A stretch of DNA of 64,000 nt from Chiloscyllium plagiosum (taxonomy: Eukaryota), in the NCBI RefSeq assembly GCF_004010195.1, contig NC_057758.1, positions 8,225,353-8,289,352 of the forward strand. Reading direction: 5' to 3'. The notes beneath the pieces were generated by a model, which saw only the letters and a list, made by a program, of their open reading frames with translations, had not been told where the DNA came from and did not search any database. Positions 516-64,000 of this stretch are shown in pieces. The position numbers and the translations under genes were made by a program. Numbering within the stretch: position 1 is the stretch's first letter; every line of letters starts with the position of its first letter.

Positions 516-2420
516 ATGTGCCCCACTTCGCCAATGATTGCTTGCCTTCTCGAAGCCAAGCTTGAATCCTTGCGAACATCGGGTGAGTTCTTACTTAAAC
601 CATTTGCTATTCATGTTTCAGGTTTTGTTGAAGTCCATTTCTGAGCTTTTGACAATTTTTCTTTACAGTAGACTGACAAATAGGGGTGGAAACTACATGG
701 ACAAATGGCGAAATGCGGAAAGACTAAAAGAGACGTGGAAGTGGCTGATGAAAATCTCATTCTTTTTCGGTAATCTGGGAACACTAAATGTTTAGATATT
801 CCTGTCTTGCAAAGAAAATATCAGGCATGTCATATTTTCACAATTGTAATGTTGATGACAGCTCTCTGTTCAATACCATTTTCAAAGAAGAGAGATCTGA
901 AAATTCCGAGGTCAGACTTCGGCCCGACGTTTTCCAACTATATACTGAGCTTCCTGACCAGACGATGGCCCACTGCATCTCCTCCGTCAAAACACTCAAT
1001 ATTGGCGCCCCAAAAGTTGGGTCCTCAGCCCCTTAACGTCCACCGTGCACATCCACGGCTGTGTTGCCGAACGAACGTCATCTTCAAATTTGCTAACGAG
1101 ATGTCCATGCGAGGAAGGATGTGAAAAAATAATGAGAGATCAGCAGAGAGAAAGGAGATCGAGGGTTTTATTATGTGGTACAATGAAAATAATCTGTCTC
1201 TCAATGTTGGCAAAACTAAAGTACTGATAATAGATTTCAGAAAAAAGAAGAGGAGAACACAACCCCATCTATATCAACTGAGTTGAGTTTAATAAATTTG
1301 ACAGCTTCAATTCCTCAGCATGATGATAACTGATAATCTGTCCTGAACTTTCCACACAGATGGGAAAGTCAAGAAGATTTCACGACGCCTCTTCCTCCCC
1401 AGGCGGCGCAGGAAATTTGGCTTCTCCAAAACAACCCTCACCAACCTTTATAGCTGCACCATAGAGAGCATTCTGCCAGATGCACAACGGCCTGATATGG
1501 CAACTGATCTGCGCAGAACCGAAAGAATCTTCAGAAGGATGTGTGCACAGCTGAGACGATCACGGAATCCAATCCCCGATTTATGGGCTCTATCCTCAAG
1601 CCTCGTTGCCATGGAGATGTTGCTAACATCATGAAAGACCCATGCCACTCGAAAATGCTCACTGGCAGCAGTTTCTGTCAGGCAGAAGATACAGAAGCTT
1701 GAAAACACGAACTAACTGGTTCAAGTGCAGCTTCTTTTCTGCTGTTATTGGACTGATGAATAAAGTCAACTATTGCTCAACATTTTAATCTTGATCTTGC
1801 CTCGTATATGTTTTGTGTGTCGTAAAATGCATGGCTTTATCTGTCCAGGTTGTTTCAGTCTATCATCTGCATATCCTTGATTACTATGATATATGTGTGC
1901 TGTTCACAAAAATGCTTTTCACTGTGCTCAGTTACACAGGATTATACGAAAAATAAAATAAAACCAAGTGAAATCATAGTCCAGAAAAAAGTGGAATAAT
2001 ACTGTGATGTTCAGTTGCAACAGTAAAACACATTTTCAATAAGAAAGGAGGGTTCAAATGTAAGTTATCAGGAATTAAGCGTAAACAATTGACAGCACTC
2101 GCAATATCCAACAACCACAGTCGCTGTTCTCTTCTTGTCGTATCTTGAGTATAAATGTGACCAGAAATGCGTAAAAATCGATGAAATTGGAAAGCAAATG
2201 TGAACTGAACAAAACAGGGCAGTGCCAGAAGAAACACAACAACTCTGAATACATACAAAAAGGTGATGTCGAAGAATGAAACTGGGGTATTAAGAACGCT
2301 AATTCTGTCCAGTAGGAGATTGAAAATTACAAGTGTTAGATGTGTTGATGGCATTGCCACATTAGAAAGGATTCAGTTTTCTCGACTGATGATCACAGTT
2401 TAAATTTGGCAGGAAATCAA
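516..2420 (+). pseudogene. Cys-rich defensin-like pseudogene B1 (exons ~516-582, 669-769, 2141-~2420)
   Basis: ATG516 opens MCPTSPMIACLLEAKLESLRTS, then G|GTGAGT (phase-1 donor; degenerate signal peptide). A 101-nt exon lies between TTTACAG and GTAATC. The last exon (acceptor mutated to GTCG) reads YLEYKCDQKC..ESKCELNKTGQCQKKH..YKC*MC*WHC and is homologous to 2931-3251 on the minus strand. Stops and a frameshift are present. Confidence 0.55.
905..1790 (+). mobile_element. Degraded Rex1/Babar-like non-LTR retrotransposon RT fragment
   Basis: Frame-broken RT motifs: YILSFLTRR, TLNIGAP, CVA, IFKFAN, SLNVGKTK.LIIDFR, followed by a 3' region. Confidence 0.7.
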
Positions 2421-2930
2421 AGAGCCAGGTTTCCAAAAGAGTTCTGTGTAAAGTTAGTGATTTATGCCATTTTACTTTATTCTACTTCCAAGGAAAAACT
2501 GATGATTGTAATTGAGAAGTGGAGGAAAATACCGTCGTGGTAAACAAAGTTAAGAATACATTTCCTGAGGTAGCTGAGATTCGGAAATGGCCTAAAGTAT
2601 GTCTTATATGAAGTTTCACTTGGCTAAACTATGGTCACTAAACTATTCTCTCATGCAATTACCTTTCATTTTCATTTATTGTAAATACAACAAGTTATTA
2701 GATGATGAATTATTTATTGACTGAGTGTCCCTTATCTATATTCCAGGGAAAGAATACATATATGTTTATGGCAGCTGAAACTGTAAGAGGCACATTATCA
2801 TGCTGAATGATTGTAAAAACAGCCTCATGGTATACACAGTTTGTTCCATTGAACATTGAAGAAAGTTAAGCGAAACGTAGTCTCTTAACGCTGTCTGCGT
2901 GAAAAACTTTCGAGGCACATCTCCTCAAAC

Positions 2931-5526
2931 TTATTCCCTCCCTCCCACACTCTGAACCTGTGCGCCCTTGCAATTGAAACTGTGATCCTGATTCAAAAAT
3001 ACTGAAACCTCTATAAATACGTGCCTTGCTGCTTGTTGGCAGTGCCAGCAACAGATTTAATACTTGTCATTTGCAATGTTCTGCTGGACTGAATTAACAA
3101 TGTTCATTCCCCAGTTGCAATCTTGGACATCACCGCTCTGTACGCATTCAGTATTGGTCCATTTCTTATGGCCCTGCCCTGTTTTAGTTGGTTCACACTT
3201 GCTTTCACAGTTGATGGATTTACATTTCTGGTCAGACATAAAATCCAGATACTACAGGGAGAGAATAGCGAATGCGGCTGTAGGATGCTGCGAGTGCTGT
3301 CAGTCTGTTACGCGCAATTCATGGTATTTTGTATTTGAGACTTCTTTTATTCCTTAAAATGTGCCGTGATTTTGCATCTTAACAGTATTATTCCGCTTTC
3401 TTCTGATCAGTCTATGATTTGATTTGATTTGATTTATTGTCCTGTGTAACTAAATATAGTGAAAAGATTCTTTGTGTTCAGTAGAAGAAGATCATAGAGT
3501 GAAATCTGACGTGCAGATGAGAGGGGTTAAAAAAGTTTCCAGAGTAACCCATGCATATTACAACACACAAAACGGAGACGCGGCAATATCAACATGTAAA
3601 TGCTTGACACAAATAAACACAGATCGAATAAAGTACATCTTTTCCAACTGATTATAAGATAATTCTAATGTACATATTCTAGATTTATACTGTATGTACC
3701 ATCAGATATAATGCAGTGTGAGTACTTATCCAAGATAATTACACGTCACACTATATTTGTCTGATGGAAATAAAAAAAGAAATCACTTACCCCGATGTTT
3801 CTAAACCTAACTTCTTGTATCTCTCAGTGAAGGATGATATAACAAAAAGTGACTAAACCAAACTTTGCTATGCAGTGTACTCATATTGTAATCAGTCAAA
3901 ACTGTGGCAAATGAGAACAGATTCAATGGATCATCAAGACTGGCAGGTATATTTATGTGTGGCGGTCAGTTGACACATAAAATATGATGATAAAGAAAAG
4001 ATAATCACCGAGTGACTTCCATCGACATCTAATCATTTAATTTATGTATTTTCAATAGAACATTCGTAAACGCCCTCAAGGATACTTATCAAGCATTTTC
4101 TTTCAACCAATTAGATTAGATTACTTACAGTGTGGAAACTGGCCCTTCGGCCCAACAAGTCCACAACGACCCTCTGAAGCCAACCCACCCATATATTTAC
4201 CTAACCTGCACATCTTTGGACTGTGGGAGAAAACCGGACCAAACCCACTCAGACACGAGGAGAATGTGCAAACTCCACACAGGCAGTCGCCTGAGGCGGG
4301 AATTGAACCCTGGTCTCTGGCTCTTTGAGGCAGCAGTGCTCACCACTGTGCCACCGTTGCAGCCACACATATGCCATTATATGTAACAAAGGAAATCATT
4401 TAGAGCAAATGTTTTATTTTGGAATTACATAACTTCCACAGTGTTTATGAATCTGTCAGATTTCTGTAGTCTGAGCAAAACAAGAAAAGACTTGCCCGTT
4501 CAGCCTCTGGGAGAATGACTTCTCTTGGAAATGAGTAAATTCTGGCAAACATGTTAAAATTTATTCATGAACATTAAAACACAGTTAAATATTTTCTTAC
4601 ATAACCAACACTGGAGTGATAGTTTTACAAGTAACACCAACAGCTGCAAGTATAGGGTAAAACATACCCTCTGTCTGTTAGATTACTGACTACTCCAAGT
4701 TGGCTCTTATTTTGTGGATTCACTGATGGTTACTGCTGAAAAAATAGACGCATATTCAATGCAAGTCACTTTTATATTGAGCAATCGCTCCCGTGATATT
4801 ACTAATTTGTTTGAGTGTCACACTATTAATTTAGAGTAATCGAAACAAGAATAAAATCAACTGCGTTGATTTCAAATCACGTTCTATGATTCTCTGTCGA
4901 ACCAGATTATAAATTCTACATGTGCCGCATACAAACTAAATCAGACACTCAATGCAAAGTGGGGTATACGGTCACAAAATTAGGAAATCTCTTGCTGGAA
5001 AAGCCATTCAGTCGTTGCAAACGCATGTGCAGAAGAAGAGTCAGCTAAAGTCTGGATCTTACTGTACGTATGTCTATCTTTACCTTTCTTCCAAATGGAG
5101 AGAGTAATCAAGAGACACGGAGTAAGAAATGATCTGTATGGAATGATTTGGATACATGACATGTGGTGGACAGATTAACATGAGGAAGACAAAAATACAT
5201 ATAGTGGGAAAGGCATTCGGGATGCGGTGACCAGAGATGTGCAGTGAAACTTTAAGGTGATTTAACAACAGTTTTCCGCTGAAAGCAACACCCGAAACCC
5301 AGGGAATACATGTCAAGTCGAACAGAATTACTTGAGGGAGGAAAGAAAACAGTAAACATTCCAGTGTAGAATTCTTTACTGGGACATTGTGCCGGCGTTA
5401 TTTCAGATTTCCAGCGTCCACCATAAGTTACTTTATGCTTAATGCTTTGGAGAGATTAAAAATGCAAACCTTCCAACACAACCACCTTCAAAAGCAACGC
5501 CATTCCCACTATCGAAGGTCTTCCAT
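2931..5526 (-). pseudogene. Cys-rich defensin-like pseudogene B2 (exons 5526-5470, 5133-5084, 3251-2931)
   Basis: Signal-like exon M/GRPSIVGMALLLKVVVLE+G|GTTTGC (1-nt frameshift). A 50-nt exon CAG|...|GTAAAG (phase 1 to 0) ends in GRK. A phase-0 exon after CCCTGTAG reads YLDFMSDQKCKSINCESKCEPTKTGQGHKKWTNTECVQSGDVQDCNWGMNIVNSVQQNIANDKY*ICCWHC. The splice phases are mutually consistent. Confidence 0.65.
4112..4362 (-). mobile_element. HE1-like tRNA-derived V-SINE
   Basis: Reverse complement of ggtggcacagtggtgagcactgctgcctca...gtgtggagtttgcacattctcc, with an aatct tail. Confidence 0.85.
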
Positions 5527-6079
5527 TCTCATGTATTGGGCGTGTGCTCGTTATGTTCGATTGAAAGATGACCTGTTCTGAATCATTGACCAGACCTGAC
5601 ATAGTTAAATATATATTGGATGAGTGGGCAATGAACTGATGGAAAGTAGGGATGAATAATAACTTCTGGCCCAACCAATAAGCACATCGTTCTTTATCAT
5701 AGCGATGAAAGAAAACTGTTTGCAAAATTTCCGCAGTGGTATGAATAGTCTCTTGTATTGTTTGATCAACTTAACATTGGACACGATTCTCTTTGAAGTA
5801 CCGGCTAATATTCTCCTTGACTGCTCTCTTACCCGCTGAACTTGGATACTTGAACTTGAACATGACATGGAATTTTATTTTTAGCAGTGGTTATGGGGCG
5901 TGTGTTTTACTGGTTGGCCAGCATTCATTGCCGATCCTTACTTCCTTTCAGAACACGGTGATGAGCATACATCTTGAACGGCTGCAGGCCAACAATGATA
6001 TCAGGAAGTGATTTTGGCCCAGCGACAGTGACGCAACAACTATATAGTTCCAAATATATTTGCTGTAGATCTTCTGTAG

Positions 6080-7270
6080 GATTCAGCCGTTGTAGCATTG
6101 GATCAGAGCCGGAACAACAAGCGAGTAAGTGCAGGGAGTAGGGACAAATGTGAGACTGTGATAGGCATAGGTTAGAATTAGAATAGGTGGAGTGACGTCG
6201 CTGGGCTCGGAGTGACTGGAGGAGACAGAGGCACAGATAGGTAGTGAGTTAATGAAAACGTTTGGAGAAAGCAGGGTACTTGTGATTTGTGACGTTAACC
6301 GTTCTGTTATTGATTGGGACTCGCTTAGACCCAGGGGATCAGATGGAGACAAAATTATTGGATGTGTCCAGGAGGATTGCTTTTGAGACAGTACATTGAC
6401 AATACAACGAGAGACGAGGCCATACTAGACTTGAGATTACTGAATGAGGCAAAACAGTTGATCAGTGTTTCAGTAGGAGAGCGTTTTGGACTGAGTGACT
6501 ATAATTTCAGAAGATTTCGAGCAGTCATGGACAAGAGTGGCCGTCTGATGAGAGTGTTAAATTCAGAAAAGACCAATTGCGTTTAATTAGATAATGACTG
6601 GTGAATGGGGATTGGACGGTTATTTGAGGGCCAATCTGTGTCTGGAAATTTTGAGGCCTGACAAGATTCGGAATTGTGGGTAACAAGGCGAATTGCAAGC
6701 TTAGTTAAAAGGGGTAAAAATAAGAGTACAATATATCTAGGCAGTTACAAACTGACAAAGCACGTTGGGAGTACAGAGTAAATTAGTAAGGAGGTTAAAT
6801 GTGGAATTAGGAATCCTAAAAACGACCACGAAATGTCTTTAGCTAACAGGGTCAAGGAGAATCCCAGGACTTTTCATGCATAGATGAGAAACAAGAGTAT
6901 AGCAAGGAAAGAATAGGCATACCCGAGAATAAAGGGCGTGCAGTTGAAATTATGCATGGACCACAAAAATTGGAAATATGTTTCATGAAAACATTGCATC
7001 GGTATTCACTAATGGAGATGTGCGAGGGAAGAACTTCCAGCAAGATGGGTAGGAATCTGGAACACACTGCCACATGAGATGATGAAAACAATCACGTTGG
7101 CAATATTTAAAAGCCATTTGGATCATTACGTGAATAGGGAGGGACTAGAGGGATGCAGACTGAATAAGGACATAAGGCTTGTGTTTTATTTTAATGAGGG
7201 CATAATGTTCGGCGAGGGTTTGGAAGGCTGAGTGCCTGTCCCTGTGATATACTTCCTTTTGTTTGTTCTA
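6080..7270 (+). mobile_element. Degraded, internally deleted CR1-clade LINE (endonuclease region joined to 3' end)
   Basis: Motifs LRQYIDNTTRDEAILDL, VGERFGLSDYN and RVKENPRTF, then a CR1-like 3' tail. Inverted copy at ~59985-61080. Confidence 0.75.
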
Positions 7271-8680
7271 AGTCAGGATATGAGTGGCTTGGAGGAAACC
7301 TTGCAGGTGATAGCTCCCCCATTAATCTGCTACACTTTTTCTTGTAAGGCAAATTTGTTATGAATTTTGACAGTGCGATCTGAGTGAAATTTGCTGAATT
7401 TTGACATGAGCTTTCGATATAAAGTACACACTATTGCTCCTGAGCTTGGGCGTTCGAGCGTTTGGATAGTTGGGAATATAATGCCATTCATGCACTGCTT
7501 TGTCCTGGATGGTTCAAAACTTCTTAAGTGTTGTTACAGCTGCACTTAACCACACAATGATGTGGTAGCCCATCACACTTATGATCTGTACCTTTTAGAT
7601 TATGTAGAGGCTTCGGGGAGTTAAGACGTGAGTTATTCGCCACTGTATTTCTCGTTTCTGATCTCTTCCTGTCGGTAATGTGTTTACGTGGTGAGTCCAG
7701 TTGAGTTCCTTATCAGATATAAAGCACAGATGTTCATTTTGAGGACTTATTGATTGTAACAACATTGACTGAGTCGGGTCAATTGTTAGATTGTCTCTTA
7801 TTTGTAGGGGTCATAATTTGGCATGTGCACGACGTGGTTGTGACATGCAACTTGTCAGTTGAGGGTGTGGTTCCTGAAACGACAGCAAACCAGGCAACGT
7901 TCGAGGAGCAGGAATATCGATGTTTTGGGCAAAAGCCCTGAGGTAGCGCTTTAGTCTGAAACGTTGATTTTCCTGCTCCGCAGATGCTGTCTGGCCAGTG
8001 GTGCTTTTCCAGACCACACTCTGGGTTCTTATCTCCAGAATCTGCAGTCTTCTGTTTGCCTTGCCACTTGTCAGCCTAGCCTAGACATCGTACTCATATT
8101 GTTGCATTTTAAAATGGATTGCTTCCGTAACTAGGTAGATGCAAATTATGATGAATATTGGGCAGTCATCAGCAACATCCGTAATCATGACGTTATGGTA
8201 GAGTAGCTGACGATAATTTAGCCTTGGTCACTATCCTGAGGAGAGATGTTCTGGTTCTGAGATTACTGACCTCCAACAAACTTGACATTTGGCATATCTT
8301 ATGATTATCAACCTAACCAATGGATAGTTTGCCCCTTGATATCCATTGACACCAGTTTTGCGACCTTCATGTCAGCTCTGAAATTTAGTTTATTTTGTCG
8401 ATGTTTGAAACAAGTCTGAACAGTAATTGGATCTTCCCCAATCCTTTCCTTCCGTGTCACTGAGTCTCATTTCTGAACAGTCTCCCATATATAAATCAAG
8501 CACTCACAACCACCTTGTTAAGGGGGAAACTAAAGTTGGGCAATAAATGCTGGATAGCCAGAGATGCCCACGTGGCATGAGTGAGTAAAAAAGATGCATG
8601 TCTGTAACTTCTCCGCCCATTAAAACTGATTTCTGATTGACTTATTTTTATAATTCTTGAACAAGATTTTATTAGAAGAA

Positions 8681-8683
<3 letters not shown>

Positions 8684-8762
<79 letters not shown>
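8684..8762. repeat. (CA)n microsatellite
   Basis: Seen directly. The paralogous tracts at 47412-47424 and 58452-58520 differ in length. Confidence 0.98.
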
Positions 8763-8766
<4 letters not shown>

Positions 8767-8829
8767 GAGTTATTTTTCAAAAGCTGCTGTCGAATGCGAG
8801 ATTAACACTGATGTTTTCTCCTGTGGTAG

Positions 8830-9360
8830 TATTCCTTTATCTCTTCCCAGTGTTTCTCGGATGGGGGCACATTCAAGGCCCCCATCTCTGCCATCGGTCA
8901 CGTTTTGTCCAATGAATTCTTGGGACCCGAGAATTGCTCCAACCGACTAGAATCTCCTCCATTGGTTTGCCACATTGCAGCCCACTCTGGATGGTTCGAC
9001 CCTCTCGTCAGATAGACATACCCAGAAGATGGTTTGGAACTGTCAGGGATGATGGTTTGCATTCTCACGGGATGAATGTGTTAATGAACTTGTCTGTTGG
9101 TCAGTGAGGGCACGGAATAGCTACAGGAATCAGACGTATCAATATAATCGTCTCGCCATTTTGTGGTCATCCTGGTATGTCTGGAGATCTCTGTGCAGAG
9201 CAACCCTTGCTCAATTTCCTGCTTCTACCCCTGCCATGTTTATTCCAACCTAACTCACCATCATTCAGCAAATCATGCTGGATTGCACTTGTGTATGTGC
9301 AGGATTACATCAGAACTGACTCTCCAACAGTGTGGTGCTCCACCAGATCTGGCTTTCCAG
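8830..9360 (+). pseudogene. Decayed exon D1 with ~3 tandem beta-defensin-like motifs
   Basis: Reads QCFSDGGT[F]KAP..ENCSNRLESPPLVCH; KKMVWNCQG*WFAFSRDECVNELVC[W]; VCLEISVQSNPCSISCFYP..KSC[W]. Missing Cys positions are often one base from a Cys codon (TTC, TGG). Frameshifts are needed. Confidence 0.45.
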
Positions 9361-9884
9361 TACCGAGTGCTGACCTCAGTGCAGCCCATCCGACAGACTG
9401 ATTTTTTGCTCCCTCATTACTGACACTTTGACATGACTGTGCTCAGTGCAGCTCAGAGCGGCTTGTAAATTCTCATGACTCCCCGTTCTATTCAAGTTAC
9501 ACTGACACTCCGATAATACGGCGCTCCCACAGTTTTAGCCCGTTGACAGTGAGATCATTTTCTCAGTGTGAGCTCTCGGAAACTGCGGTACTCTCTTGTT
9601 GGTCAACCTCGACTCGCTCACATTCATTACCACTGACGCCTGACAATGTGAAGCCCCATTTGCACTTAGCAGCTGCTGATACACGCATAAGGGACCATTG
9701 TCGTTCACTTGGTCATTAAGCCTGTTGCCTCATTCCATAGAATCATGCGATTGTGAAACTTAAATGCAGAATTTGACCATATTGCTCCTGGACATGCTCC
9801 AACATTTGATCAGAGCTCATGCGTTCCAACCGACCACACCCCTATGGTAACTCGTGATCGGCTTACCAATCAAGAGCCTGTCTA

Positions 9885-10750
9885 TCTGGATACTGACGAA
9901 GGATTTAGTAGGTTGCAGAGGGACATAGATAGGATGCAGAGCTGGGCTGAGAGGTGACAAATGGAGTTTAATGCGGACAAGTGTGTGGTGATTCACTTTG
10001 GCTGGAGTAATCGGGATGCAAAGTACTGGGCGAATGGTAGGATTCTTGGGAGTGCAGATGAGCAGAGAGATCTCGGTGTCCATGTACACAGATCCATGAA
10101 AATTGCCACACAGATTGACAGGGTTGTTAAGAAAGCAAACAGTGTTTGGACTTTACTAATAGAGGGATTGAGTTGCGGAACCAGGAGATTATGCTGCAGC
10201 TGTACAAAGCTCTGATGCGGCCACACTTGGAGTATTGTGTACAGCTCTGATCACCGCATTATAAGAAGGATGCGGAAGCTTTGGAAAGGGTGCAGAGGAG
10301 ATTTACTAGGATGTTGCCTGGTAGGGAAGGAATGTCTTACGAGGAAAGGCTGAGGGCCTTGAGGCTGTTCTCGTTATAGAGAAGAGGGTTGAGAGGTGAC
10401 TTAATAGAGACAAAAAAGATAATCAGAGGGTGAGATAAGGTGGACAGGGAGAGCCTTTTTCCAAGTATGGAGACGGCAAACACGAGGGGACACAACTTTA
10501 AAGTGAGGGGAGATAGGTATTAGACAGATGTCAGAGGTAGTTTCGTTACTCAGACAGTAGTAAGGGTATGGAATGCTTTGCCTGCATCGGTAGTAGATTC
10601 GCCAAGTTAAAGTGCATTTAAGTCGTCATTGGACATACATGGAATGGTGTAGGTGGGATAGGCTTCACATTAGTATGATAGGTCGGCGCAACATCGAGGG
10701 CCGAAGGGCCTGTACTGCGCTGTAATGTTCTATGTTCTATATTCTATGTT
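9885..10750 (+). mobile_element. 5'-truncated CR1/HER1 LINE 3' end
   Basis: LQRDIDRMQSWAER, MEFNADKCVVIHFG, EQRDLGVHVH, RPHLEYCVQ; tail of (ttctatg)n repeats. Confidence 0.9.
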
Positions 10751-11274
10751 CCTTTCTTAAATGCTCTCAATGACGTGGCCTCCCTAGCCTTCTGAGCAAT
10801 AGGTTTCACGATTCGCCAATTCTCTGCCTGAAGAAGTTATTCCTTAATCAATTCTCGAGGTGTGCCCCGTTACTCTGAGGCTTTGCCCTCGGATCCCAGC
10901 CTTTCCCAAAGACGGATACATCTTCGTCATGCCCATTCTATCCAGGTCGCTCAGTATTCTGTAACTTTTAATCAAATCCCTGATCATGGCTGATTTCATT
11001 CTAAATCATATTCCTCTGCATTTGCGATAATCTTTCATTCCTTGATCTTGAACAGTGTTCCGCCCTCTGTGTTTTCTCTCTCTCTCTCTCTCTTTCTCAA
11101 TTTCTCCCTCCACCCCCCTTCTTTTTTCTCTCTGCATGTATTTGCTGCCAGAATAGTTCGGTTTCTCTGTGCAGAAAAGTCCAAGCAGACTCGAAATGCT
11201 AAGTCTGATTTCCTCTCTCTACGCTAAAACTGCCAGACGTCCTGTGCTTTCACCAGTGTTCTCTGTGCATTTGG

Positions 11275-11605
11275 CACCGAATGCGGCATGGACAAGGACT
11301 GGTTAACAGTTCAGCTGGTTTTAAGTTACACCTCGCGGGGAACATCGGATTAAGCAGTCCGACCTTACATAGATTCCACAGTCAACTTAAGAATCAACTG
11401 AAGTCAGTATCCCCATAGCTCTCGTGCGGCACTTGTGTCTGATATCGTCGATTCTTGCAACAGTGTTCTTCAGGCGGGCACAGCCTCAGAACAGGTTATA
11501 CTTTAAATGTTGGGCACACATTGACTGAACACATGCCACCAGCATTTTTACAGTCATTTTCATAATCGGCAAGGAAGCAAACAGTTTGTTCGTCTGTTCT
11601 GCTCG
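11275..11605 (-). pseudogene. Beta-defensin-like exon A1 (complete six-Cys domain with an internal stop, plus a decayed second domain)
   Basis: Polypyrimidine acceptor TTCCAG|CG (phase 1). Reads ASRTDEQTVCFLADYENDCKNAGGMCSVNVCPTFKV*PVLRLCPPEEHCCKNRRYQ = C-x6-C-x4-C-x11-C-x5-CC with GGxC and CP; TAA at 11498-11496. Second motif: DCGIYVRSDCLIRCSPRGVT*NQLNC*PVLV/PC[R]. Confidence 0.8.
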
Positions 11606-11639
11606 CTGGAAGCATGGGGGAGAAAGTCGAATTCCAAGA

Positions 11640-13500
11640 TCACAGAATCCCCCAGAATACTTCGGGCGCACTCGGACGCTATTCGACCGGCTGTGTACAC
11701 TGCTGTTCTATCCCCTGATGTAAACTTCGTGACTCTTGCCCCAGCTCTCTGCATCTCATTTCCACACCAACAAATACCCGACTTCCGTCTTGAAAGTATT
11801 GCCTTGAGTATACCTCCAGGCCATGACGTGGCCTTCCGAACTTGCCTTGAGTATACCTCCAGGCCATGCATTCCAGACCCTAAGTACTTACTGGGTGGAA
11901 AAGATCTTACTCTCTTTATTATTGTTTCATTTGCACCCACCTTAACGATACGACCATACGCCCTTCTCATTGTTGATCCTTTTACAAATGGTAAAGCCTT
12001 CTCCCTGTGTACACAGTTCAGCTGCACGCCATGATTTTGAAATCTCCGTCATATCTCCTCTCAGCTATTTTCTCTCCAGGGAAAGCAGTTGCACCAGTTT
12101 ATTCTTTCTTTGCTATTGTCTCCCTTTGTCCTACCAAAGTCTATTATCTGCGCACAGATACATGCATGTCCCTTTGCGCCTGCCCCCCTTTAAATTTCTG
12201 CCACCTGTACCATGCAATCCCAATTTTATATTGCCTTTCAGTGATCTTCCAATAAAGTGCATCCCCTTTCACTTCATTGAATTGAAATGTGTCTACCTCT
12301 TACCTTCCAACTCTACCAATTTGCCAGTGTCCTTTTGAATCTCTGCACTGGCCTTCCCATAGTTTACAGTTCTACCAGGTTTCGAGTCATCTGCATGCGT
12401 CTAAATTGTTAACTGCTCAGTTCTCCAGATGCAATATCACTAATGCCCTGTATTACTGAAGTATAGACTTCCTCCTTTTGCATTTTTTTCCTATGTTAAC
12501 AATACAATATTCTCTAGACTGTATGAATCTGTGAGTCTGTGTGATCTGCATAAAAAGAAAGTCAAATTTATGGTCGAGCTGATTTCTCTTCTCGTCGGGG
12601 TATCGAGTACGGCAGGCTATAGTGTGAGAATAAGGGACTTCAGAATTAAGACAGAAATGTGCAGAAATTACATCTCTGCAAGCTTGAGACTCAATTAAAT
12701 TTGCCAACTCCTCTTTTATCCCTCCAGTAGAAGATATCCTTCCCGTTGCGTGATGACCAGGAGTACACACAATATTTCAGCTGTGCCCAAACTGAAGTTC
12801 TGTACAGATCCAACAAAACCTCCTGCTTTTATAATCGATGTCTCGAATGGTAAAGACAACACGGTCCTTCTTAATTCTACCATTAACATGTGGACACGCC
12901 CCGAAGATTTCTCTATTCCTTTGAGCCTACTCATGACCCAGGAATCATGAGTACTCTCCTACCTTGATTCTTCTTCCCAAGAGCGTTTCCTAAACTTATC
13001 GATGTTAAATCCAATTCTGCACTCATGTTCAGAACTGTCTTATTGAGTTATTTTTCTTTCGGGCTATCTTTCTGCCATCCACAAATTTGGAAACAGTATC
13101 TCACGTCCCTTTGTGTGAACGGTGTTGAAAAACAGCAAACATTTGAGGGTTCAGCCGGCCACTTTCTGTTGCATGACTTGTAAAGTTGAACACGCAAGAT
13201 GCCAACCTCCTGTTTACATCCTGCCAGAGCAATCATTCTTCTCTCCATGCCTGTATATACCATGCTTGCACACTGAACATACTATATCTGCGCAGGAGCA
13301 CCTTATATCCAGCCTTCATGAAATTTACTTACACCACGTCCAAGGGTTACCTTCTGTCTACAATGCGCGTTGTCAATGAACTCAAAAAGCTTCCTCAAAC
13401 CATGATCATTCAACAAACCATGTCGTTTTTACAATGATTGCCTTTGAAATCATCCAAATGCTCTGTTACAAATTCCTAACAATACATTCATTGAGACAAA
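11640..13500 (-). mobile_element. Nested degraded CR1 fragments in the intron of pseudogene A
   Basis: An SKFADD-like RT remnant (VSKFVDGRKI), LRGDM motifs, and a CR1 3' tail ending in attctgtga just upstream of the exon A acceptor. Confidence 0.7.
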
Positions 13501-14179
13501 GTTTTATCTAACTCGGTGAGACCCAAGCAACTGCAATTGGTGAAAATTGAGAAATGGGACATTTGGAAATCTGGTGGTGCCGAAAGGGAGGGGGAGGGTA
13601 GGTTGCATTTAAATAATTCAAAAACAAATGTTATTGAAATTGAGGCATTACTTGAATATACATACAGAACAACATCAGCATATCTGTGACTATTGCTTGG
13701 CACAGGCGAGCCAATTCCAGTCAGTGCACATGGAGCATTTTGAATCATTTCGGTGTAGTGGAGGTAACAGAGTTGGTTTGCTGGAGGGAAGGTGCAGGGA
13801 ACATGCCAGTGTCTCATTATGATAAATGATCCCAGCGTTAACCGTGTTGTGTGAGAGGCGAAGAACAAGGAAAAGGAGAAGGATAGGCAATCGATCAAGC
13901 GAGTGATCATTTGATGCAATCATGGCTGATCTTTTCCCAACAGCCAACTCCACATTCCAGTCCCATCTCTTCAGCTGAAGTCAGGTAAAAATCTGTCCAC
14001 CACTTCTTTATGTTTACTAGTATCCCGGCATTCACTGCATCCCGCGTCAGTGAGTTCCACCAATCGATGGTTCTTTCAGAAAAAAAAATCTTCCTCATCT
14101 ATGCTCTGAATTCATACCCTTTGTTTTAAAACTTGGACCTATCCTTCTACAAATCCCGACCTGAGGAAGCATCCCTTTT

Positions 14180-14481
14180 GGGCGGTACGGTGGCACAGTG
14201 GTTAGCACTGCTGCCTCACAGCGCTCAGAGACCTGGGTTCAATTCCTGACTCAGGCGACTGACTGTGTGGAGTTTGCACATTCTCCCCGTGTCTGCGTGG
14301 GTTTTGTCCGCTTGCTCCGGTTTCCTCCCACAGTACAAAGCTGTGCAGGTCAGGTGAATTGGCCATGCTAAACTGCCCGTAGTGTCAGGCGTAGGGGAAT
14401 GGGTGGGTTGCGCTTCGGCGGGTCGGTGTGGACTTGTTGGGCCGAAGGGCCTGTTTCCACACTGGAAGTAATCTAATCTAA
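14180..14481 (+). mobile_element. Full-length HE1-like V-SINE
   Basis: tRNA-like A/B boxes (tggcacagtgg, ggttcaattcc), V-domain gtggagtttgcacattctccccgtgtctgcgtggg, and an aatct tail. Confidence 0.9.
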
Positions 14482-15138
14482 TAATCCATTCTACGTACAC
14501 TTGCACAATCGTACTCACCATTTTTCAGACTCCGATTTGACTGCTTAAACTTTCTTCATAAGACAAATGTTCACTAATTGACGCAGTTGACTGAAACTCC
14601 TCTAAATTGCCTCCAGTATAACTATATACCTTCTCAAGTAAGGTGATCCAAATTCTCCGCAATATTCCAACGGCAGAGTCATTGATTCCTTCTACAGTTG
14701 CAGAAACACACTTCTTTTATAGTAGATTCGTTTAAGAATAAATTGGAAACACCAATTTATTCCTTCCTCCGAGGTGCTATCAACATTTGAGCGAATGTTA
14801 GATCCAGAGTGAAGTGGCTGCATTCTGTGCTGGAACAATTTTTATATCTTTTACATTCAACTGACTATTTCTGATAGAAGTGGTATCAGTTGGAAGTTTG
14901 AAAAAGCTGATTTCAATGTAAGGGGGTTGCCCAGATAATCACACAGAAGAGCGGATGGAAGATGTCAGGAGTAAGCAATGATTGGTGTGCGGACCACTGA
15001 CAGAAGTGTTCACTACTGGAAGAATATTAATGAATAAATTGCGAAACTCATCATGATCCAACAGGCAAACTCTGGTTTTATTTTGTGAAAGTGAATGATT
15101 TTTAAAGGAAATTAAATGAATTTAGGACCCTGTCTCAC

Positions 15139-16239
15139 TTCTGAAATAGTTTTCTGCGATGTCGGAATTGAGCGATTGAATGGCCTTCTCATATACCTGC
15201 GAAAGATGCAGTGGTATAAAAAATAATATGGATCTTCGATTTTGGGAAGTAAGAAAAGTGCATCAGAAGCAAAGGACAAAAAGAGCATCAGGAAAGAGCA
15301 CCATGGGCTCACCGATCTCGGGACTCATAGCAGAAGCAGTAATGCAAATGTTAGAACAAACAGTCTTTCCACAAATTCAACCCAAACTCTGGGTCAGATA
15401 CGTTGATGACACCTTTGTAATCATTAAAAACACGGAAATAGAGAATACACACCGGATCATCAACTCCACACTCACAGGAATCCGATTCACGAGAGAGGAA
15501 GAAAAGGACAACCAACTCCCATTCCTAGACGTGAGGGTAGAGAGAACACCAGACGGAGAATTCACCACTAAGGTAGACAGGAAAGCGATACACACAGACC
15601 AAGCCCTGAACTATGAAAGCAACCACCCCAATACACACGAACGAAGTTTCATCAAGACACTATTCAAAAGGGCCACAACACACTGCAGCACACCAGAACT
15701 GCAAAACGAGGAAGAGGAACACCTATACAAGATATTCGCTAAAAACGGATATCCTCGCAATTTCATCAACAGATGCCTAAGGGAAAGACAACAGATCGAG
15801 GACATGCAGCAACCCAAAGGACTAGCCACACTACCATACAGCAAGAACATCTCTGAAATGACAGCCAGACTACTGCGACCACTAGGACTTATAACAGCAC
15901 ACAAACCAACAGCCACTCTCAGACAACAACTCACCAAAACCAGCCAGGGAATTCCTAGAAGCATGGCACTCATCCACAAACTCCATCAACAAACACATAG
16001 ACCTGGACACAATATACCGGCCGCTACAGCGGACAGCTGAAACTGACAACCGGAAGCGGCAGGGACAGGCCACTATAAATGCCGGAGGAAACACCACAGA
16101 AGCGCTTCACAAGAGGCTCCCAAGCAGTGAGGATGTCACCGAGACAGGGGACGAAACGTTTGCAACAAAAACTTCCAGCTCTGCGAACAGAACCACAGCA
16201 GCATCAGGAAACGTATTGCGAAGGGTCCTGCCATCAACA
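15139..16239 (-). pseudogene. 5' exons of pseudogene A1: signal-peptide exon split by a Penelope insertion, plus a 58-nt exon (15196-15139)
   Basis: Removing the insertion restores MLMAGPFAIRFLMLFLSFAS. Downstream, TTTCGCAG|VYEKAIQSLNSDIAENYFR+A|GTGAGA. No intact donor follows the signal segment. Confidence 0.5.
15296..16199 (+). mobile_element. Penelope-like element, 5'-truncated and internally deleted, with 12-bp TSD
   Basis: RT motifs MGSPISGLIAEAVM, WVRYVDDTFV, FTREEEKDNQLPFLDV and LNYESNHP. The sequence jumps to an EFLEAWHS tail, so most of the GIY-YIG domain is missing. TSD agcatcaggaaa at 15284-15295 and 16200-16211; empty site at 41148-41159. Confidence 0.92.
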
Positions 16240-16246
16240 TTCTCCA

Positions 16247-40970: not shown

Positions 40971-41065
40971 TTGCTTAATAATCTGCCAACTTGATACACA
41001 CAAGATGCAGGCAATCACTTTTATTGATGTCATTATTACTGACAGATACGTCGTGAACTTATAAA
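40971..41065 (+). promoter_or_regulatory. Candidate promoter of gene A2: C/EBP-like site and TATA box
   Basis: TTGCTTAAT at 40971-40979 and TATAAA at 41060-41065, 53 nt upstream of the signal-peptide ATG at 41119. Confidence 0.4.
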
Positions 41066-41118
41066 GAGAAAGCTTGAGGACTAACTTCGGCCACGAGATA
41101 TGAGATACTCAGTGGAGA

Positions 41119-45519: not shown

Positions 45520-46300
45520 ATGAAGCCCATCCCACCTACACTATTCCATGAATGTCCAATGACGACTTAAATGCACTTTAACTTGGCGAATCTACTAGCG
45601 ATGCAGGCAAAGCATTCCATACCCTTACTACTCTCTGCGTAAAGAACCTACATCTGACATCTGTCTTATACCTATCTCCCCTCACTTTAAAGTTGTGTCC
45701 CCTCGTGTTTGCCGTCTCCATTCTTGGAAAAAGGCTCTCCCTGTCTACCTTATCTCACCCTCTGATTATCTTTTATGTGTCTATTAAGTCACCTCTCAAC
45801 CTTCTTCTCTCTGACGAGAACAGCCTCAAGGCCCTCAGCCTTTCCTCGTAAGACATTCCTTCCATACCAGGCAACATCCTAATAAATCTCCTCTGCACCC
45901 TTTCCAAAGCTTCTGCATCCTTCTTATAATGCGGTGATCAGAGCTGTACACAATACTCCAAGTGTGGCCGTATCAGAGCTTTGTACAGCTGCAGCATAAC
46001 CTCCTGGTTCCGGAAATCAATCCCTCTATTAATAAAGGCCAAAACACCGTATGCCTTCTTAACAACCCTGTCAATCTGGGTGGACATTTTCAGGGATCTG
46101 TGTACATGGACACCGAGATCTCTCTGCTCAGCTTCACTCCCAAGAATCCTACCATTAGCCCACTACTTTGCATCCCGATTACTCCAGTCAAAGTGAATCA
46201 CCACACACTTGTCCGCATGAACTCCATTTGTCACCGCTCAGCCCAGCTCTGCATCCAATCTATGTCTCTCTGCAATCTACTACACCCTTCGTCAGTTTCC
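45520..46300 (-). mobile_element. CR1/HER1 3' fragment (paralog of 9885-10750)
   Basis: Inverted copy lacking the terminal tail. The same deletion is seen at 56565-57350. Confidence 0.9.
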
Positions 46301-46816
46301 AGATAGACAGGCTCTTGATTGGTAAGACGATCACGAGTTACTGTAGGGGTGGGGTCGGTTGGAACGCATGAGGTCTGATCGAATGTTGGAGCATGTCCAG
46401 GAGCAATATGGTCAAATTCTGCATTTAAGTTTCACAATTGTATGATTCTATGGAATGAGGCAGCAGGCTTAATGACCAAGTGAACGACAATGGTCCCTTA
46501 TGCGTGTATCTGCAGCTGTTAAGTGCAAATGGGGCTTCACATTGTCAGGCGTCAGTGGTAATGAATGTGAGCGAGTCGAGGTTGACCAAAAAGAGAGTAC
46601 CGCAGTTTCCGAGAGCTCACACTGAGAAAATGATCTCACTGTCAGTGGGCTAAAACTGTGGGAGTGCCGCATTATCGGAGTGTCAGTGTAACTTGAATAG
46701 AACGGGGGAGTCATGAGAATTTACAAGCCGCTCTGCACAGTCATGTCAAAGTGTCAGTAATGAGGGAGCAAAAAATCAGTCTGTCGGATGGGCTGCACTG
46801 GGGTCAGCACTCGGTA

Positions 46817-47347
46817 CTGGAAAGCCAGATCTGGTGGAGCACCACACTGTTGGAGAGTCAGTTCTTATGTAATCCTGCACATACACAAGTGCAATCCAGC
46901 ATGATTTGCTGAATGATGGTGAGTTAGGTTGGAATACACATGGCGGGGTAGAAGCAGGAAATTGAGCAAGGGTTGCTCTGCACAGAGATCTCCAGACATA
47001 CCAGGATGACCACAAAATGGCGAGACGATTATATTGATATTTCTGATTCCTGTAGTTATTCCGTGCCCTCACTGACCAACAGACAAATTCATTAACACAT
47101 TTATCCCGTGAGAATCCAAACCATCATACCTGACAGTTCCAAACCATCTTCTTGGCATGTCTATCTGACGACAGGGTCGAACCATCCAGAGTGGGCTGCA
47201 AAGTGGCAAACCAATGGGAGGAGATTCCAGTCGGTTGGAGCAATTCTCGGGTCCCAAGAATTGATTGGACCAAACGTGGCCGATGGCAGAGGTGGGGGCC
47301 TTGAATGTGCACCCATCCGAGAAACACTGGGAAGAGATAAAGGAATA
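46817..47347 (-). pseudogene. Multi-domain defensin-like exon D2
   Basis: Inverted paralog of 8830-9360 (RDKCVNEFVC[W]). Confidence 0.45.
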
Positions 47348-48257
47348 CTACCGCAGGAGAAAACATCAGTGTTAATCTCGCATTCGACAGCAGCTTTTGA
47401 AACATACGTTTGTGTGTGTGTGTGTTTGCTCTTCTAATAAAAACTTGTTCAAGCATTATTAATAAAAGTCAATCAGAAATCAGTTTTAATGGGCGGAGAA
47501 GTTATAGACATGCATCGTTTTTACTCACTCATGCCACGTGAGCATCTCTGGCTATCCAGCATTTAATGCCCAACTTTAGTTTCCCCCTTAACAAGGTGGT
47601 TGTGAGTGCTTGCTCGCCATGGTCTCACATTGCTATATGGGAGACTGTTCAGAAATGAGACTCAGTGACATGGAAGGAAAGGCCGGTTTGGATTGGGGAA
47701 GATGACTCAGAAATCCATTACAGTTCAGACTTGTTTCAAACATCGACAAAATAACTGAATTTCAGAGCTGAAATGAAGGTCGCAAAACTGGTCTCAATGG
47801 ATATCAAGGGGCAAACTCTCCATTGGTTAGGGTGGTAATCACAAGATATGCCAAATGTCAAGGTTGTTGGAGGTCAGTAACCTCAGAACCAGAACATCTC
47901 TCCTCAGGATAGTGACCAAGGCTAAATTATCGTCAGCTACTCTACCATAACGTCATGATTACGGATGTTGCTGATGACTGCCCAATGTTCATCATCATTT
48001 GCATCTACCTAGTTACGGAAGCAGTCCATTTTAAAGTGCAACAATATGAGTACGATGTCTAGGCTCGGCTGGCAAGTGGCAAGGCAAACAGAAGACTGCA
48101 GATTCTAGAGATAAGAGCCCAGAGTGTGGTCTGGAAAAGCATCACTGGCCAGACAGCATCTGCGGAGCAGGAAAATCAACGTTCAGATTAAAGCACTACC
48201 TCAGGGCTTTTGCCCAAAACATCGATATTCCTGCTCCTCGAACGTTGCCTGGTTTGC

Positions 48258-48866: not shown

Positions 48867-49640
48867 ATGTCATCGCGGTATCCTGCCTATTCTCTGACCA
48901 TTGCTTTCGTCCCTGTCATTATGTTAGAACTCTGATCTGAATGGGAAATGAAATTTGGACAATTTATGTTTGTTGATGTCGTTTAGTTTTATTCATATGT
49001 GTGAGAAGGCAGTGCGTCAGGACTCATTGTATTGAGACCATGAAATGAAGATTGAATTGGTGAGATGACAGATCTCTCCATTCGGAAACTCAAAGGCTTT
49101 CCAGAGGTGCATGTTTCCTTTTCTTCATCGCTGGCAAGAAAGGCATGCAGCACACTTAGAAGTGTGGGCATGCCCCATCGGTCCTCACTGAAATTGTCTC
49201 ATTACATGGTACTTTACTGCAGTAACTTCGCTCTAAAACACATGGAATGATTGGATCTCGGAGACAGAACAAAAGAGAAAAAATATTCTTCAATGTTAAC
49301 ATTCCACACACTGGATATCCTCCTGTGGTCTCACTGGGGGGCATAAAGCCAGAAAATGCAGATTGCAGTCTCTCGTTTCTAATAGTAATTTGTTGGGGTC
49401 GCTGTTGTACATATTGCTTGAAGTGGTTTCCATTATTGTTTGTGAATACCAGACCTGCATGCAGTGCTGCAGCTCTGACCTGCTATTGATATAGCCGATT
49501 GGGAACTGATCAGTTTGTTCACAGTGTGTAAATATTTGGGAAGACGGACTGCAACGTTTCTGAGCACGTTGCTTCAGGAACTGAGAATCGATAGGAAACA
49601 TCAGCTGGCTTAAAGGTGAACAGATCCCCTGGTCCGTAAC
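48867..49640 (+). pseudogene. Defensin-like pseudogene E2
   Basis: ADCSLSFLIVICWGRCCTYCLKWFPLLFVNTRPACSAAALTC[Y]*; acceptor mutated to CTG at 49311-49313. Second motif: QCVNIWEDG/CNVSE/RCFRN*ESIGNIS[W]LKGEQI. Confidence 0.55.
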
Positions 49641-50898: not shown

Positions 50899-51353
50899 AT
50901 TACAGAGAAAGGAACGACTGAAATATTAACGTGAATGAACACACATGATCAACCCAAATAGAAGCAAAGAGCATAGTGACCACCGTTCAAAGCAGTGCTG
51001 CCCTCGTTTGACCACATGAAGTTGTGCAAATCTCTGTAAGGAAGTTTAACTGGGGTACTTACAATTTTTCTGGCCTTCCACCAACACCAGCTTTCCAATC
51101 AGCAAAAGCAGTGTCAACCACTTCATCACTGTTGTGGCGAGAGGAAAAATGACAAGACTGAAACACAGATCATCATTTTATGGTTTCAAAGATGGCCCTG
51201 TTTTTCATCACAGACATAACTATGACTGGCACCAGTTTGAATTATGTTGAAAATTATCTCACTAACTGAGACAGGGAGTGAATGGAACGGAAGTTCAAAG
51301 CTATCTCCTTAAAGTTTACATGTTGTACCGAACAAAGTTACCGGCCTGAGTAA
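50899..51353 (+). pseudogene. Two-domain defensin-like exon F2
   Basis: Strong poly-T acceptor ending CTTCCAAG|AT. One frame reads KLCKSL*GS[L]TGVLTI[F]LAFHQHQLSNQQKQCQPLHHCCGERK = C-x6-[C]-x6-[C]-x14-C-x5-CC. A second TCCTEQSYRPE* lies at 51318-51353. Confidence 0.6.
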
Positions 51354-55753: not shown

Positions 55754-56080
55754 CGAGCAGAACAGACGAACAAACTGTTTGCTTCCTTGCCGATTATGAA
55801 AATGAATGTAAAAAAGCTGGTGGCATGTGCCCAGTCAATGTGTGCCCATCGGTTTAGGTATAACCTGTTCTGAGGCTGTGCCTGCCTGAAGAACACTGTT
55901 GCAAGAATCGGCGATCTCAGACACAAGTGCCGCACGAGAGCCATGAGGATACTGACTTCAGTTGATTCTTAATTTGACTGTGGAGTCTAAGTAAGGTCGG
56001 ACTGTTTAACCGATGTTCACCGAGAGGTGTGACTTAAAACTAGCTGAATTGTTAACCAGTCCTTGTCCATGCCGCGTTCG
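55754..56080 (+). pseudogene. Beta-defensin-like exon A3 (orphaned; 5' exons deleted)
   Basis: TTCCAG|CG then SRTDEQTVCFLADYENECKKAGGMCPVNVCPSV*V*PVLRLCLPEEHCCKNRR. Confidence 0.78.
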
Positions 56081-61500: not shown

Positions 61501-61641
61501 AGAAGTTATGACTCATCCCTACTTTCCATCTGTCCATTGCCTACTCATCCAATATATATTTAACTATGTCAGCTCTGGTCAATGATTCAAAACAGGTCAT
61601 CTTTCAATCGAACATAACGAGCACGCGCCCAATACACGAGA

Positions 61642-64000
61642 ATGGAAGATCTTGGACAGTGGGAATAGCGTTGCTTTTGAAGGTTTGTGTTGGAAGGTTT
61701 GCATTTTTAATCTGTCCAAAGCATTAATCATAAAGTAACTTATGGTGGACGCTGGAAATCTGAAATAACGCCGGCACAATGTCCCAGTAAAGAATTCTAC
61801 ACTGGAATGTTTACTATTTTATTTCCTCCCTCAAGTAATTCTATTCGACTTGACGTGTATTCCCGGGGTTTCGGGTGTAGCTTTCAGCGGAAAACTGTTG
61901 TTAAATCACCTTAAAGTTTCACTGCACATCTCTGGTCACCGCAGCCCTGATGCCTTTCCCACTATATGTATTTTTGTCTTCCTCATGTTAATCTGTCCAC
62001 CACATGTAGTGTATCCAAATCATTCCATACAGATCATTTCTTACTCCTTGATCACTCTCTCCATTTGGAAGAAAGGTAAAGATATACATACGTACAGCAA
62101 GATCCAGATTTTAGCTGACTCCTCTTCTACACATGCGTTTGCAACGACTGAATGGCTTTTCCAGCAAGAAATTTCCTAATTTTGTGACCGTATACCCCAC
62201 TTTGCATTGAGTGTCTGATTTATTTTGTATGCGGCACACTTGGAATTTATAATCTGGTTCGACAGAGAATCATAGAACGTGATTTGAAATCAACGCATTT
62301 GATTTTCTTCGAGTTTGGATTACTCTAATTTCATGGTGTGACACTCAAACACATTAATAATATCACGGGAGCGATTGCTCAATATAAAAGTGACTTGCAT
62401 TGAAGATGCGTCTATTTTGTCAGCAGTAACCATCAGTGAATCCACAACATAAGAGCCAACTTGAAGTAGTCAGTAATCTAACAGATAGAGGGTATGTTTT
62501 ACCCTATACTTGAAGCTATTGGTGTTACTTGTAAAACTATCACTCCAGTGTTGGTTATATAAGAAAATATTTAACTGTGTTTTAATGTTCATGAATAAAA
62601 TTTAACATGTTTGCCAGAATTTACTCATTTCCAAGCCAAGTCATTCTCCCAGAGGCTGAACGGGCACGTCTTTTCTTGTTTTGCTCAGACTACAGAAATG
62701 TGACAGATTCATAAACACTGTGGAAGTTATGTAATTCCAAAATAAAACATTTGCTCTAAATTATTTCCTTTGTTAGATATAATGGCATATGTGTGAGTGC
62801 AACGGTGGCACAGTGGTGAGCACTGCTGCCTCACAGAGCCAGAGACCAGCGTTCAATTCCCGCCTCAGGCGACTGCCTGCGTGGAGTTTGCACATTCTCC
62901 TCGTGTCTGAGTGGGTTTGCTCCGGTTTTCTCCCACAGTCCAAAGATGTGCAGGTTAGGTGAATTGGCCATGCTAAATTGTCCGTAGTGTTAGGTGAAGT
63001 GGTAAATGTATGGGTGGGTTGCGCTTCAGCGGGTCGTTGTGGACTTGTTCGGCCGAAGGGTCGGTTTCCACACTGTAAGTAATCTAATCTAATTGGTTGA
63101 AAGAAATGCTTGATAAGTATCCTTGAGTGCGTTTACGAATGTTCTATTGAAAATACATAAATTAAATGATTAGATGTCACCGTAAGTCACTCGGTGACTA
63201 TCTTTTCTTTATCATCATATTTTATGTGTCTCCTGACCGCCACACATAAATATACCTGCCAGTCTTGATGATGCATTGAACCTGTTCTCATTTGCCACAG
63301 TTTTGACTGACTACAATATGAGTACACTGCATAGCAAAGTTTAGTTTAGTTACTTTTTGTTATATCATCCTTAACTGAGAGATACAAGAAGTTAGGTTTA
63401 GAAACATCCGGGTAAGTGATTTCTTTTTTTTAATTTCCATCAGGCAAAAATAGTGTGACGTGTAATTATCTTGGATAAGTACGCACACTGCATTATATCT
63501 GATGGTACATAAAGTATAAATCTAGAAGATGAATATTAGAATTATCTTATAATCAGTTGGAAAAGACGTGCTTTATTCGATCTGTGTTCATTTGTGTCAA
63601 GCATTTACATATTGATATTGCCGTGTCGATGTTTTGTGTGTTGTAATCTGCATGGGTTACTCTGTCCATTTTTTTAACTCTATCATCTGCATGTCAGATT
63701 TCACTCTGTGATCTTCTTCTACTGATCACAAAGAATCTTTTCACTATATTTAGTTACACGGGACAATGAATCAAATCAAATCAAATCATAGACTGATCAG
63801 AAGAAAGTGGAATAATACTGTTAAGATGCAAAATCACGGTACATTTTAAGGAATAAAAGAAGTTTCAACTACAAAATGCCATGAATTGCACGGAACCGAC
63901 TGACATCACTCGCCGCATCCTATAACTGCATTCGCTATTCTATTCCTGTAGTATCTGGATTTTATGCCTGACCAGAAATGTAAATCCATCAACTGTGAAA
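61642..64000 (+). pseudogene. Cys-rich pseudogene B3 (exons 61642-61696, 62033-62075, 63952 onward)
   Basis: Paralog of B2 with extra small deletions. The last exon starts YLDFMPDQKCKSINCE and runs off the window. Confidence 0.55.
62800..63092 (+). mobile_element. HE1-like V-SINE (paralog of 4112-4362)
   Basis: A/B boxes, V-domain and aatct tail. Confidence 0.88.

What the first reader, a model, noticed from the sequence alone, without database searches (positions are those of the whole stretch)
516..64000. Hidden dense cluster of beta-defensin-like pseudogenes in a probable shark genome
Seen: about 11 distinct non-TE segments (about 19 copies counting duplications), on both strands, encode C..GxC..C..C..CC-type motifs. 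Most sit directly behind phase-1 acceptors, and several have upstream hydrophobic or signal-like exons, three of which end in a phase-1 donor. The ORF track misses or only partly shows them. Established: vertebrate beta-defensins have a C-x6-C-x3-5-C-x8-10-C-x5-6-CC core, a separate signal exon, and evolve in clusters by birth and death. Inference: this is the decayed part of a large, possibly unannotated elasmobranch defensin-like family, with intact members likely nearby.
Basis: partly seen in the sequence, partly recalled or inferred. Interest (0 to 1): 0.9.

Follow-up and report, generated by a model that had tools for sequence, protein, structure and literature searches.

The report
Five dead shark beta-defensin gene copies
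This stretch of shark-type DNA holds five broken copies of two small defence-peptide (beta-defensin) genes, copied along with large duplicated blocks, at the edge of a large family of such genes that spreads over most of one small chromosome.

Summary
Partly confirmed. The window holds five six-cysteine beta-defensin-like second exons of two types (A x3, B x2), not about 19 copies of 11 types. Five hits score >=5.3 against 0.16 expected from simulated DNA and 0 in 52.7 kb of control DNA. A profile of 29 intact cores finds no sixth. Weaker motifs are at background, or lie in a SINE and a 54-bp tandem array. Four copies have a signal exon; only one keeps a canonical acceptor. Lesions are shared, so about two gene deaths were multiplied by segmental duplication. 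Relatives abound: 85 exon matches at E<=0.001 for three queries, 24 on the window's 9.98-Mb contig C49 (0.84-8.87 Mb), 59 on small contigs. One intact-looking two-exon relative passes Pfam PF00711 and folds like human beta-defensin 1. Types A and B miss the Pfam cut-off and join the family by motif, gene structure and profile links. No expression evidence. This scan already reported the same family elsewhere on C49; nine literature searches found no paper on it.

The parts
37473..37536 (-). Type B copy 1, signal-peptide exon (21 codons + 1 nt), phase-1 GTAAGT donor
   Evidence: hydrophobic frame kept in paralogues L062 and L100 at 83-86% DNA identity
35685..35945 (-). Type B copy 1, exon 2: canonical acceptor, six-cysteine core 35836-35931, premature stop at 35845-35847 before the last two cysteines, AATAAA near 35690
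51063..51126 (-). Type B copy 2, signal exon with phase-1 donor
48990..49256 (-). Type B copy 2, exon 2: GAG acceptor, core 49147-49242, same premature stop as copy 1, AATAAA downstream
41119..41245 (+). Type A copy 2, probable signal/pro exon (42 codons + 1 nt), weak phase-1 donor
   Evidence: ATG and hydrophobic core shared with L063 and L104, but donor phase differs in L104, so medium confidence
44629..44790 (+). Type A copy 2, exon 2: acceptor AG lost, core 44643-44738, two stops
15196..16240 (-). Type A copy 1, signal exon split by a reverse-transcriptase element (about 15296-16190) with a 12-nt direct repeat at the junctions
   Evidence: RVT_1 E 6e-4 for ORF 15180-16040; the label Penelope-type is recalled
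11400..11566 (-). Type A copy 1, exon 2: acceptor AG lost, core 11457-11552, one stop
   Evidence: (PF00711 E 0.11, below cut-off)
55793..55955 (+). Type A copy 3, orphan exon 2 (no signal exon in its block), acceptor lost, core 55807-55902, two stops
3203..15295 (.). Segmental duplication, inverted copy of 41148-48257 and 53219-64000 (91-95% identity); carries type A copy 1
35455..48257 (.). Head-to-head B/A module, first copy; repeated in shortened form at 48758-59353 across an assembly gap (94-96% identity)
   Evidence: the same B-upstream/A-upstream arrangement is seen in L062 and L063
24830..32830 (.). Decayed 54-bp tandem array (57-58 units, about 65% to consensus), interrupted by LINE-type insertions at about 28150-32430; not defensin, but its minus strand gives chance CC-x-G-x-x-C motifs

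Best explanation
The window is a dead sector of a very large beta-defensin-type gene family. Two ancestral two-exon genes (A and B; signal exon, phase-1 intron, one exon with the six-cysteine peptide, stop and poly(A) signal) sat head to head in a module of about 13 kb. Each was inactivated about once (A: acceptor lost and a stop; B: one stop before the terminal cysteine pair), and the dead module was then copied by segmental duplication and inversion, with further damage (a retroelement in one signal exon, loss of another by a block boundary at a SINE). The five copies make no functional peptide. Their stop-free relatives on C49 and on small contigs would be secreted, three-disulfide beta-defensin-fold peptides. 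Shown: motifs, exon structure, shared lesions, duplications, relatives. Inferred: order of events, secretion, disulfide pairing, host-defence role.
For: Motif excess. Signal exons and phase-1 junctions conserved in paralogues. All three A copies and a fourth 18 kb before the window share a stop; the four B copies with the same stop form one clade, support 98/95. Pooled pN/pS 0.16 among 3 stop-free A exons and 0.81 among the 3 window A copies (few, non-independent pairs). 85 exon matches at E<=0.001, 65 without an internal stop. A profile that excludes types A and B proper (it keeps two B-like exons, L089 and L090) ranks the five window copies first. 7 of 15 aligned intact cores match PF00711 at E<=1, best 8.9e-6; 3 pass the curated cut-off (L012, L010, L017). 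All 3 PDB sequence hits are defensins. L012 model pLDDT 89.8, top Foldseek hit human beta-defensin 1, probability 0.96, TM 0.65. ESM Atlas first hits for A and B are beta-defensin clusters, scores 0.79 and 0.77, leads only.
Against: Stop-free A and B exons have no Pfam match at E<=1 (4 of 4). The type-B model is low-confidence (pLDDT 62; Foldseek probability <=0.08), and profile-profile B versus L012-type gives only probability 16%, E 0.0016. No Foldseek hit reaches E<=0.001. B pN/pS is the same in stop-bearing (0.36) and stop-free (0.39) sets. No A or B gene was verified intact end to end with canonical splice sites: the nearest B has a GC donor, and A donor phase varies. Only 7 of 15 B paralogues examined keep AG, six cysteines and no stop. 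Type B has net charge 0, unlike cationic antimicrobial defensins. The cathepsin B propeptide maps to C9, not C49.
Confidence: 0.85

Rival explanations
1. Same genes and fold, but the living relatives of A and B are not antimicrobial: they act as reproductive-tract, signalling or other secreted peptides. This can hold together with the pseudogene reading.
For: Type B exon-2 peptide is neutral with a hydrophobic tail; A and B miss Pfam; nearest Atlas cluster is PF13841-type, a group I recall as largely epididymal in mammals.
Against: Type A exon-2 peptides are cationic (+5, +6) and the L012 type is +3. No functional data either way.
Confidence: 0.3
2. One reading: about nine more types lie in the window but are too decayed for my tests.
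For: Modest excess of weak motifs (58 vs 36+-6.5); my library covers only about ten subfamilies; several non-repeat segments are specific to this cluster.
Against: Real control DNA gives 33 per 52.7 kb; about ten weak hits come from the 54-bp array and others from SINE copies and duplicates. Paralogues of the candidates at 516, 2750, 3037 and 3830 show no six-cysteine version, including stop-free relatives of 3830.
Confidence: 0.1
3. Copy number is inflated by assembly: tandem copies in the window and the many small contigs are alleles or redundant haplotigs.
For: The two modules flank an N gap at 48258-48757; 59 of 85 matches are on small contigs, several identical in protein.
Against: Window copies differ by 4-9% with private indels and insertions; 24 matches are placed at distinct positions over 8 Mb of C49 and span about 20-98% protein identity.
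Confidence: 0.12
4. The motifs are chance or derive from transposable elements.
For: A SINE in the window does spell C-x-x-G-x-C-like text (4 exact anchor matches).
Against: The five cores exceed all simulations and controls, have splice-anchored stop-free relatives, and their DNA relatives are almost confined to C49 and small contigs.
Confidence: 0.02

Closest known systems
Vertebrate beta-defensins (Pfam PF00711, PF13841; human hBD-1/2/3, penguin spheniscin-2)
   Same: C-X4-8-C-X3-5-C-X9-13-C-X4-7-C-C motif (PMC515299, passages read); separate signal exon; short helix plus three strands in the L012 model; clustering and pseudogenes.
   Different: Types A and B fall below the Pfam cut-off; type B is neutral; the window copies are dead; no cathepsin B on C49.
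Chicken beta-defensin cluster (13 genes in 86 kb next to CTSB; PMC515299, passages read)
   Same: One main cluster of small, diverged six-cysteine genes.
   Different: Here matches span about 8 Mb of a 9.98-Mb contig with at least 24 placed exons from three queries, spread by 10-15 kb duplications; some copies lie on C8, C33 and C46.
Teleost beta-defensins (three exons, a few genes; PMC8231796, passages read)
   Same: Same cysteine core and signal peptide.
   Different: Here the whole mature peptide, stop and poly(A) signal are in one exon, as in mammals; a 5' untranslated exon is not excluded.
Human 8p23 DEFB copy-number-variable block (search listing and abstracts only)
   Same: Defensin genes multiplied inside segmental duplications.
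   Different: Here the copied block carries dead genes.

Membership tests
beta-defensin | Six-cysteine spacing C-X4-8-C-X3-5-C-X9-13-C-X4-7-CC | tested here: met
   5 of 5 window cores; invariant in 15 of 15 aligned relatives, which were chosen for the motif
beta-defensin | Separate upstream signal-peptide exon joined in phase 1 | tested here: met
   B: clear; A: plausible, donor phase variable; L012-type gene clear. Judged by hydrophobicity and conservation, no signal-peptide predictor run
beta-defensin | Pfam PF00711 score above the curated cut-off | tested here: not met
   Not met for window copies or stop-free A/B; met for relatives L012, L010, L017
beta-defensin | Beta-defensin fold | tested here: inconclusive
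   Met for L012; low-confidence for type B; type A not folded
beta-defensin | Disulfide pairing 1-5, 2-4, 3-6 | not testable with these tools
   Model coordinates not available; needs peptide mapping
beta-defensin | Cationic, antimicrobial or chemotactic activity | tested here: inconclusive
   Net charge +5/+6 (A), 0 (B), +3 and +1 (others); activity untested
beta-defensin cluster of birds and mammals | Linkage to cathepsin B | tested here: not met
   PF08127 matches only at C9:579 kb; TRAM2 not tested
pseudogene | Disabling lesions absent from relatives | tested here: met
   Stops in 5 of 5, acceptor loss in 3 of 5

The most novel reading that the evidence does not exclude
Contig C49 is in large part a beta-defensin chromosome: this cartilaginous fish carries on the order of a hundred beta-defensin-type genes and relics, far more than the handful in teleosts, amplified as head-to-head A/B modules, with a mammal-like two-exon structure that would then be the ancestral state of jawed vertebrates, and with neutral subfamilies that have left antimicrobial duty.
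Probability: 0.4. Interest if true: 0.7.

Novelty: new member of a known kind. Interest (0 to 1): 0.45.

Why it matters
The five window copies are dead and matter mainly as a record of how the family turns over: dead genes are copied in blocks, so pseudogene counts overstate gene deaths. The family matters more. A 2019 review says shark antimicrobial peptides are little studied (PMC6795676, passages read), my searches found no paper on a shark beta-defensin cluster, and two protein databases returned no relative. A large repertoire in a cartilaginous fish would bear on when vertebrate beta-defensin clusters and their exon structure arose, and would offer many untested peptides.

Tried and rejected
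Extra defensin candidates: 516-583 (ATG with phase-1 GT; ATG and GT not kept in 3 of 3 paralogues at 72-80%); 2747-2930 (acceptor, cysteines not conserved in 6 paralogues; no Pfam); 3830-3970 (30 genome matches, six fetched, none with six cysteines; one search read this candidate in the wrong frame, in the right one, no Pfam either way); inverted pair 1777-2359 / 3037-3607 (hydrophobic text, no shared start or donor); 40619-40700 and 42330-42450 (look like LINE ends, recalled). 54-bp array as a coding repeat: no codon-position signal, pN/pS 0.8-1.0 in all six frames. Expression: no RNA holder listed; laying four runs on 35600-37700 gave 1 read from about 2% of X5, 0 from about 6% of X6, no exon cover in X7, and intron-inclusive cover without joints in X1, which looks like DNA: no test. 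Protein databases: no homologue for a type-A stretch (this query included intron-derived residues and may have been handicapped) or for alignment A4; the HMMER search of 1.84 billion representatives gave 2 hits, both unrelated repeat proteins. PF13841 genome scan: 5 matches, none over cut-off, none on C49. Contiguous flanks of the window could not be fetched, so local synteny and the nearest intact gene stay open.

Full report
Setting. The window is G000:C49:8225353-8289352 of a 3.56-Gb genome; C49 is 9,983,820 bases. It has two 500-base gaps, and about 38.6 kb lies in duplicated blocks: 3203-15295 is an inverted copy of 41148-48257 and 53219-64000 (91-95%), and 35455-39640 repeats at 48758-53223 (95-96%). 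That the animal is a shark rests on recalled SINE and LINE types; no call names it.

Observation. A six-frame search found five complete six-cysteine cores of two types. A: 11457-11552(-), 44643-44738(+), 55807-55902(+). B: 35836-35931(-), 49147-49242(-). A frameshift-tolerant scan gave 5 hits at score >=5.3 against 0.16 in 25 simulated windows and 0 in 52,652 bp of flanks from 20 loci on other chromosomes. At >=3.9 it gave 58 against 36+-6.5 simulated and 33 in the control; about ten of the 58 lie in a 54-bp array and others in SINE copies or duplicates. With an acceptor required, score >=4 gave 10 against 6.4+-2.3. An HMM of 29 distinct intact cores and BLASTN with their DNA recovered the same five and nothing above the simulations. 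Four further candidates were followed into their paralogues and showed no six-cysteine form.

Gene anatomy. B has a 21-codon hydrophobic exon with a phase-1 GTAAGT donor at 37473-37536(-) and 51063-51126(-), kept in frame in two paralogues. Exon 2 starts in phase 1, carries one stop before the last two cysteines and ends with AATAAA about 150 nt after the core. A has a probable 42-codon signal/pro exon at 41119-41245(+) with a weak phase-1 donor; its counterpart for the 11.5-kb copy is split by a reverse-transcriptase element; the 55.8-kb copy has none. All three A acceptors have lost the AG found in L005-L007. B and A sit head to head, and upstream DNA of both is joined the same way at C49:4.13 Mb and 7.83 Mb.

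History. The A copies, and a fourth at C49:8207063, share a stop. Both B copies and two on small contigs share their stop and form a clade (98/95, 17 rows). So about two inactivations preceded the duplications. Pooled pN/pS is 0.16 for 3 stop-free A exons and 0.81 for the 3 window copies; for B it is 0.39 (12 stop-free) and 0.36 (5 with stops), which shows past constraint but no clear relaxation (pairs are not independent).

Family. A PF00711 scan of the genome gave 28 matches at E<=10 (150 of 232 candidates scored); of 23 read, six were full stop-free cores, on C49 or small contigs. Three protein queries gave 43 (B), 17 (A) and 25 (L012 type) matches at E<=0.001: 24 on C49 between 0.84 and 8.87 Mb, 2 on other large contigs, 59 on small contigs, 20 with internal stops. 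These are lower bounds for the search and upper bounds for function: only 7 of 15 B paralogues examined keep acceptor, six cysteines and frame, and small contigs may be haplotigs. One gene looks whole: C49:5.71 Mb has a 30-codon signal exon with a phase-1 donor, a canonical acceptor, core, stop and AATAAA; it passes PF00711 and folds with pLDDT 89.8 into a helix and three strands whose best matches are human beta-defensins (best E 0.28). A and B miss Pfam, the B model is poor, and their link rests on spacing, exon structure, the profile test, a weak profile-profile match and Atlas leads. They work like beta-defensins in architecture; membership is likely but not met on the Pfam criterion.

Mechanism. 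Most likely (0.85) birth-and-death evolution by block duplication, with these five copies dead. Host defence is the default role for living relatives (known biology, PMC515299), but type B is neutral, so another secreted role is a real rival (0.3). Expression could not be tested. Cathepsin B, which flanks bird and mammal clusters (PMC515299), is on C9.

Literature. Nine searches (listings and abstract starts only) showed no paper on a shark or ray beta-defensin cluster. Passages were read in PMC6795676, PMC8231796, PMC515299 and PMC10707392. Subscription papers, genome annotations and supplements were not seen and may already list these genes. Three earlier notes of this scan report intact-looking members at other places on C49; I did not read those loci and do not count them as support.

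Verdict. Real but smaller than claimed: five dead copies of two divergent beta-defensin-like genes in a large, apparently undescribed family. New member of a known kind; interest 0.45.

Noticed in passing
window 24830-28150 and 32430-32830: Decayed 54-bp tandem array, 57-58 units; one consensus frame is open (18 residues) but there is no codon signal. Relatives at 67-98% lie on C49 (4.14, 6.53, 6.73, 6.75 Mb) and small contigs, several of which also carry type-B exons. Possibly a dead repeat exon or an old minisatellite of the module.
   Followed up: partly
window 1777-2359 and 3037-3607: Inverted pair, 71% alike, about 680 bp apart, with a TATA-like box at about 3012 and a hydrophobic reading; copies confined to C49, small contigs, C8:49.2 Mb and C13:81.7 Mb. 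Unexplained.
   Followed up: partly
L088 (C97606:2758-2856) and weak matches: A further stop-free six-cysteine exon type; about 30 weak matches with 68-69-residue frames lie on C7, C8, C23, C32, C38 and small contigs, so this subfamily may be dispersed or the pieces misplaced. Only one was read.
   Followed up: partly
L087 (C46:4314270) and L096 (C8:79802708): Stop-free beta-defensin-like exons on large contigs other than C49.
   Followed up: partly
L044 / L052 (C97408): Two stop-free type-B second exons in tandem, 754 bp apart; could allow alternative last exons.
   Followed up: no
window 41959-42124 and 53219-53431: A duplication boundary falls inside a SINE copy, which suggests SINE-mediated recombination removed the signal exon of type A copy 3.
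   Followed up: partly
window 44820-45052: 117-bp tandem duplication, 94% alike, in the 3' region of type A copy 2.
   Followed up: no
window 19425-19812: GT-rich 20/41-bp minisatellite that yields cysteine-rich chance translations.
   Followed up: no
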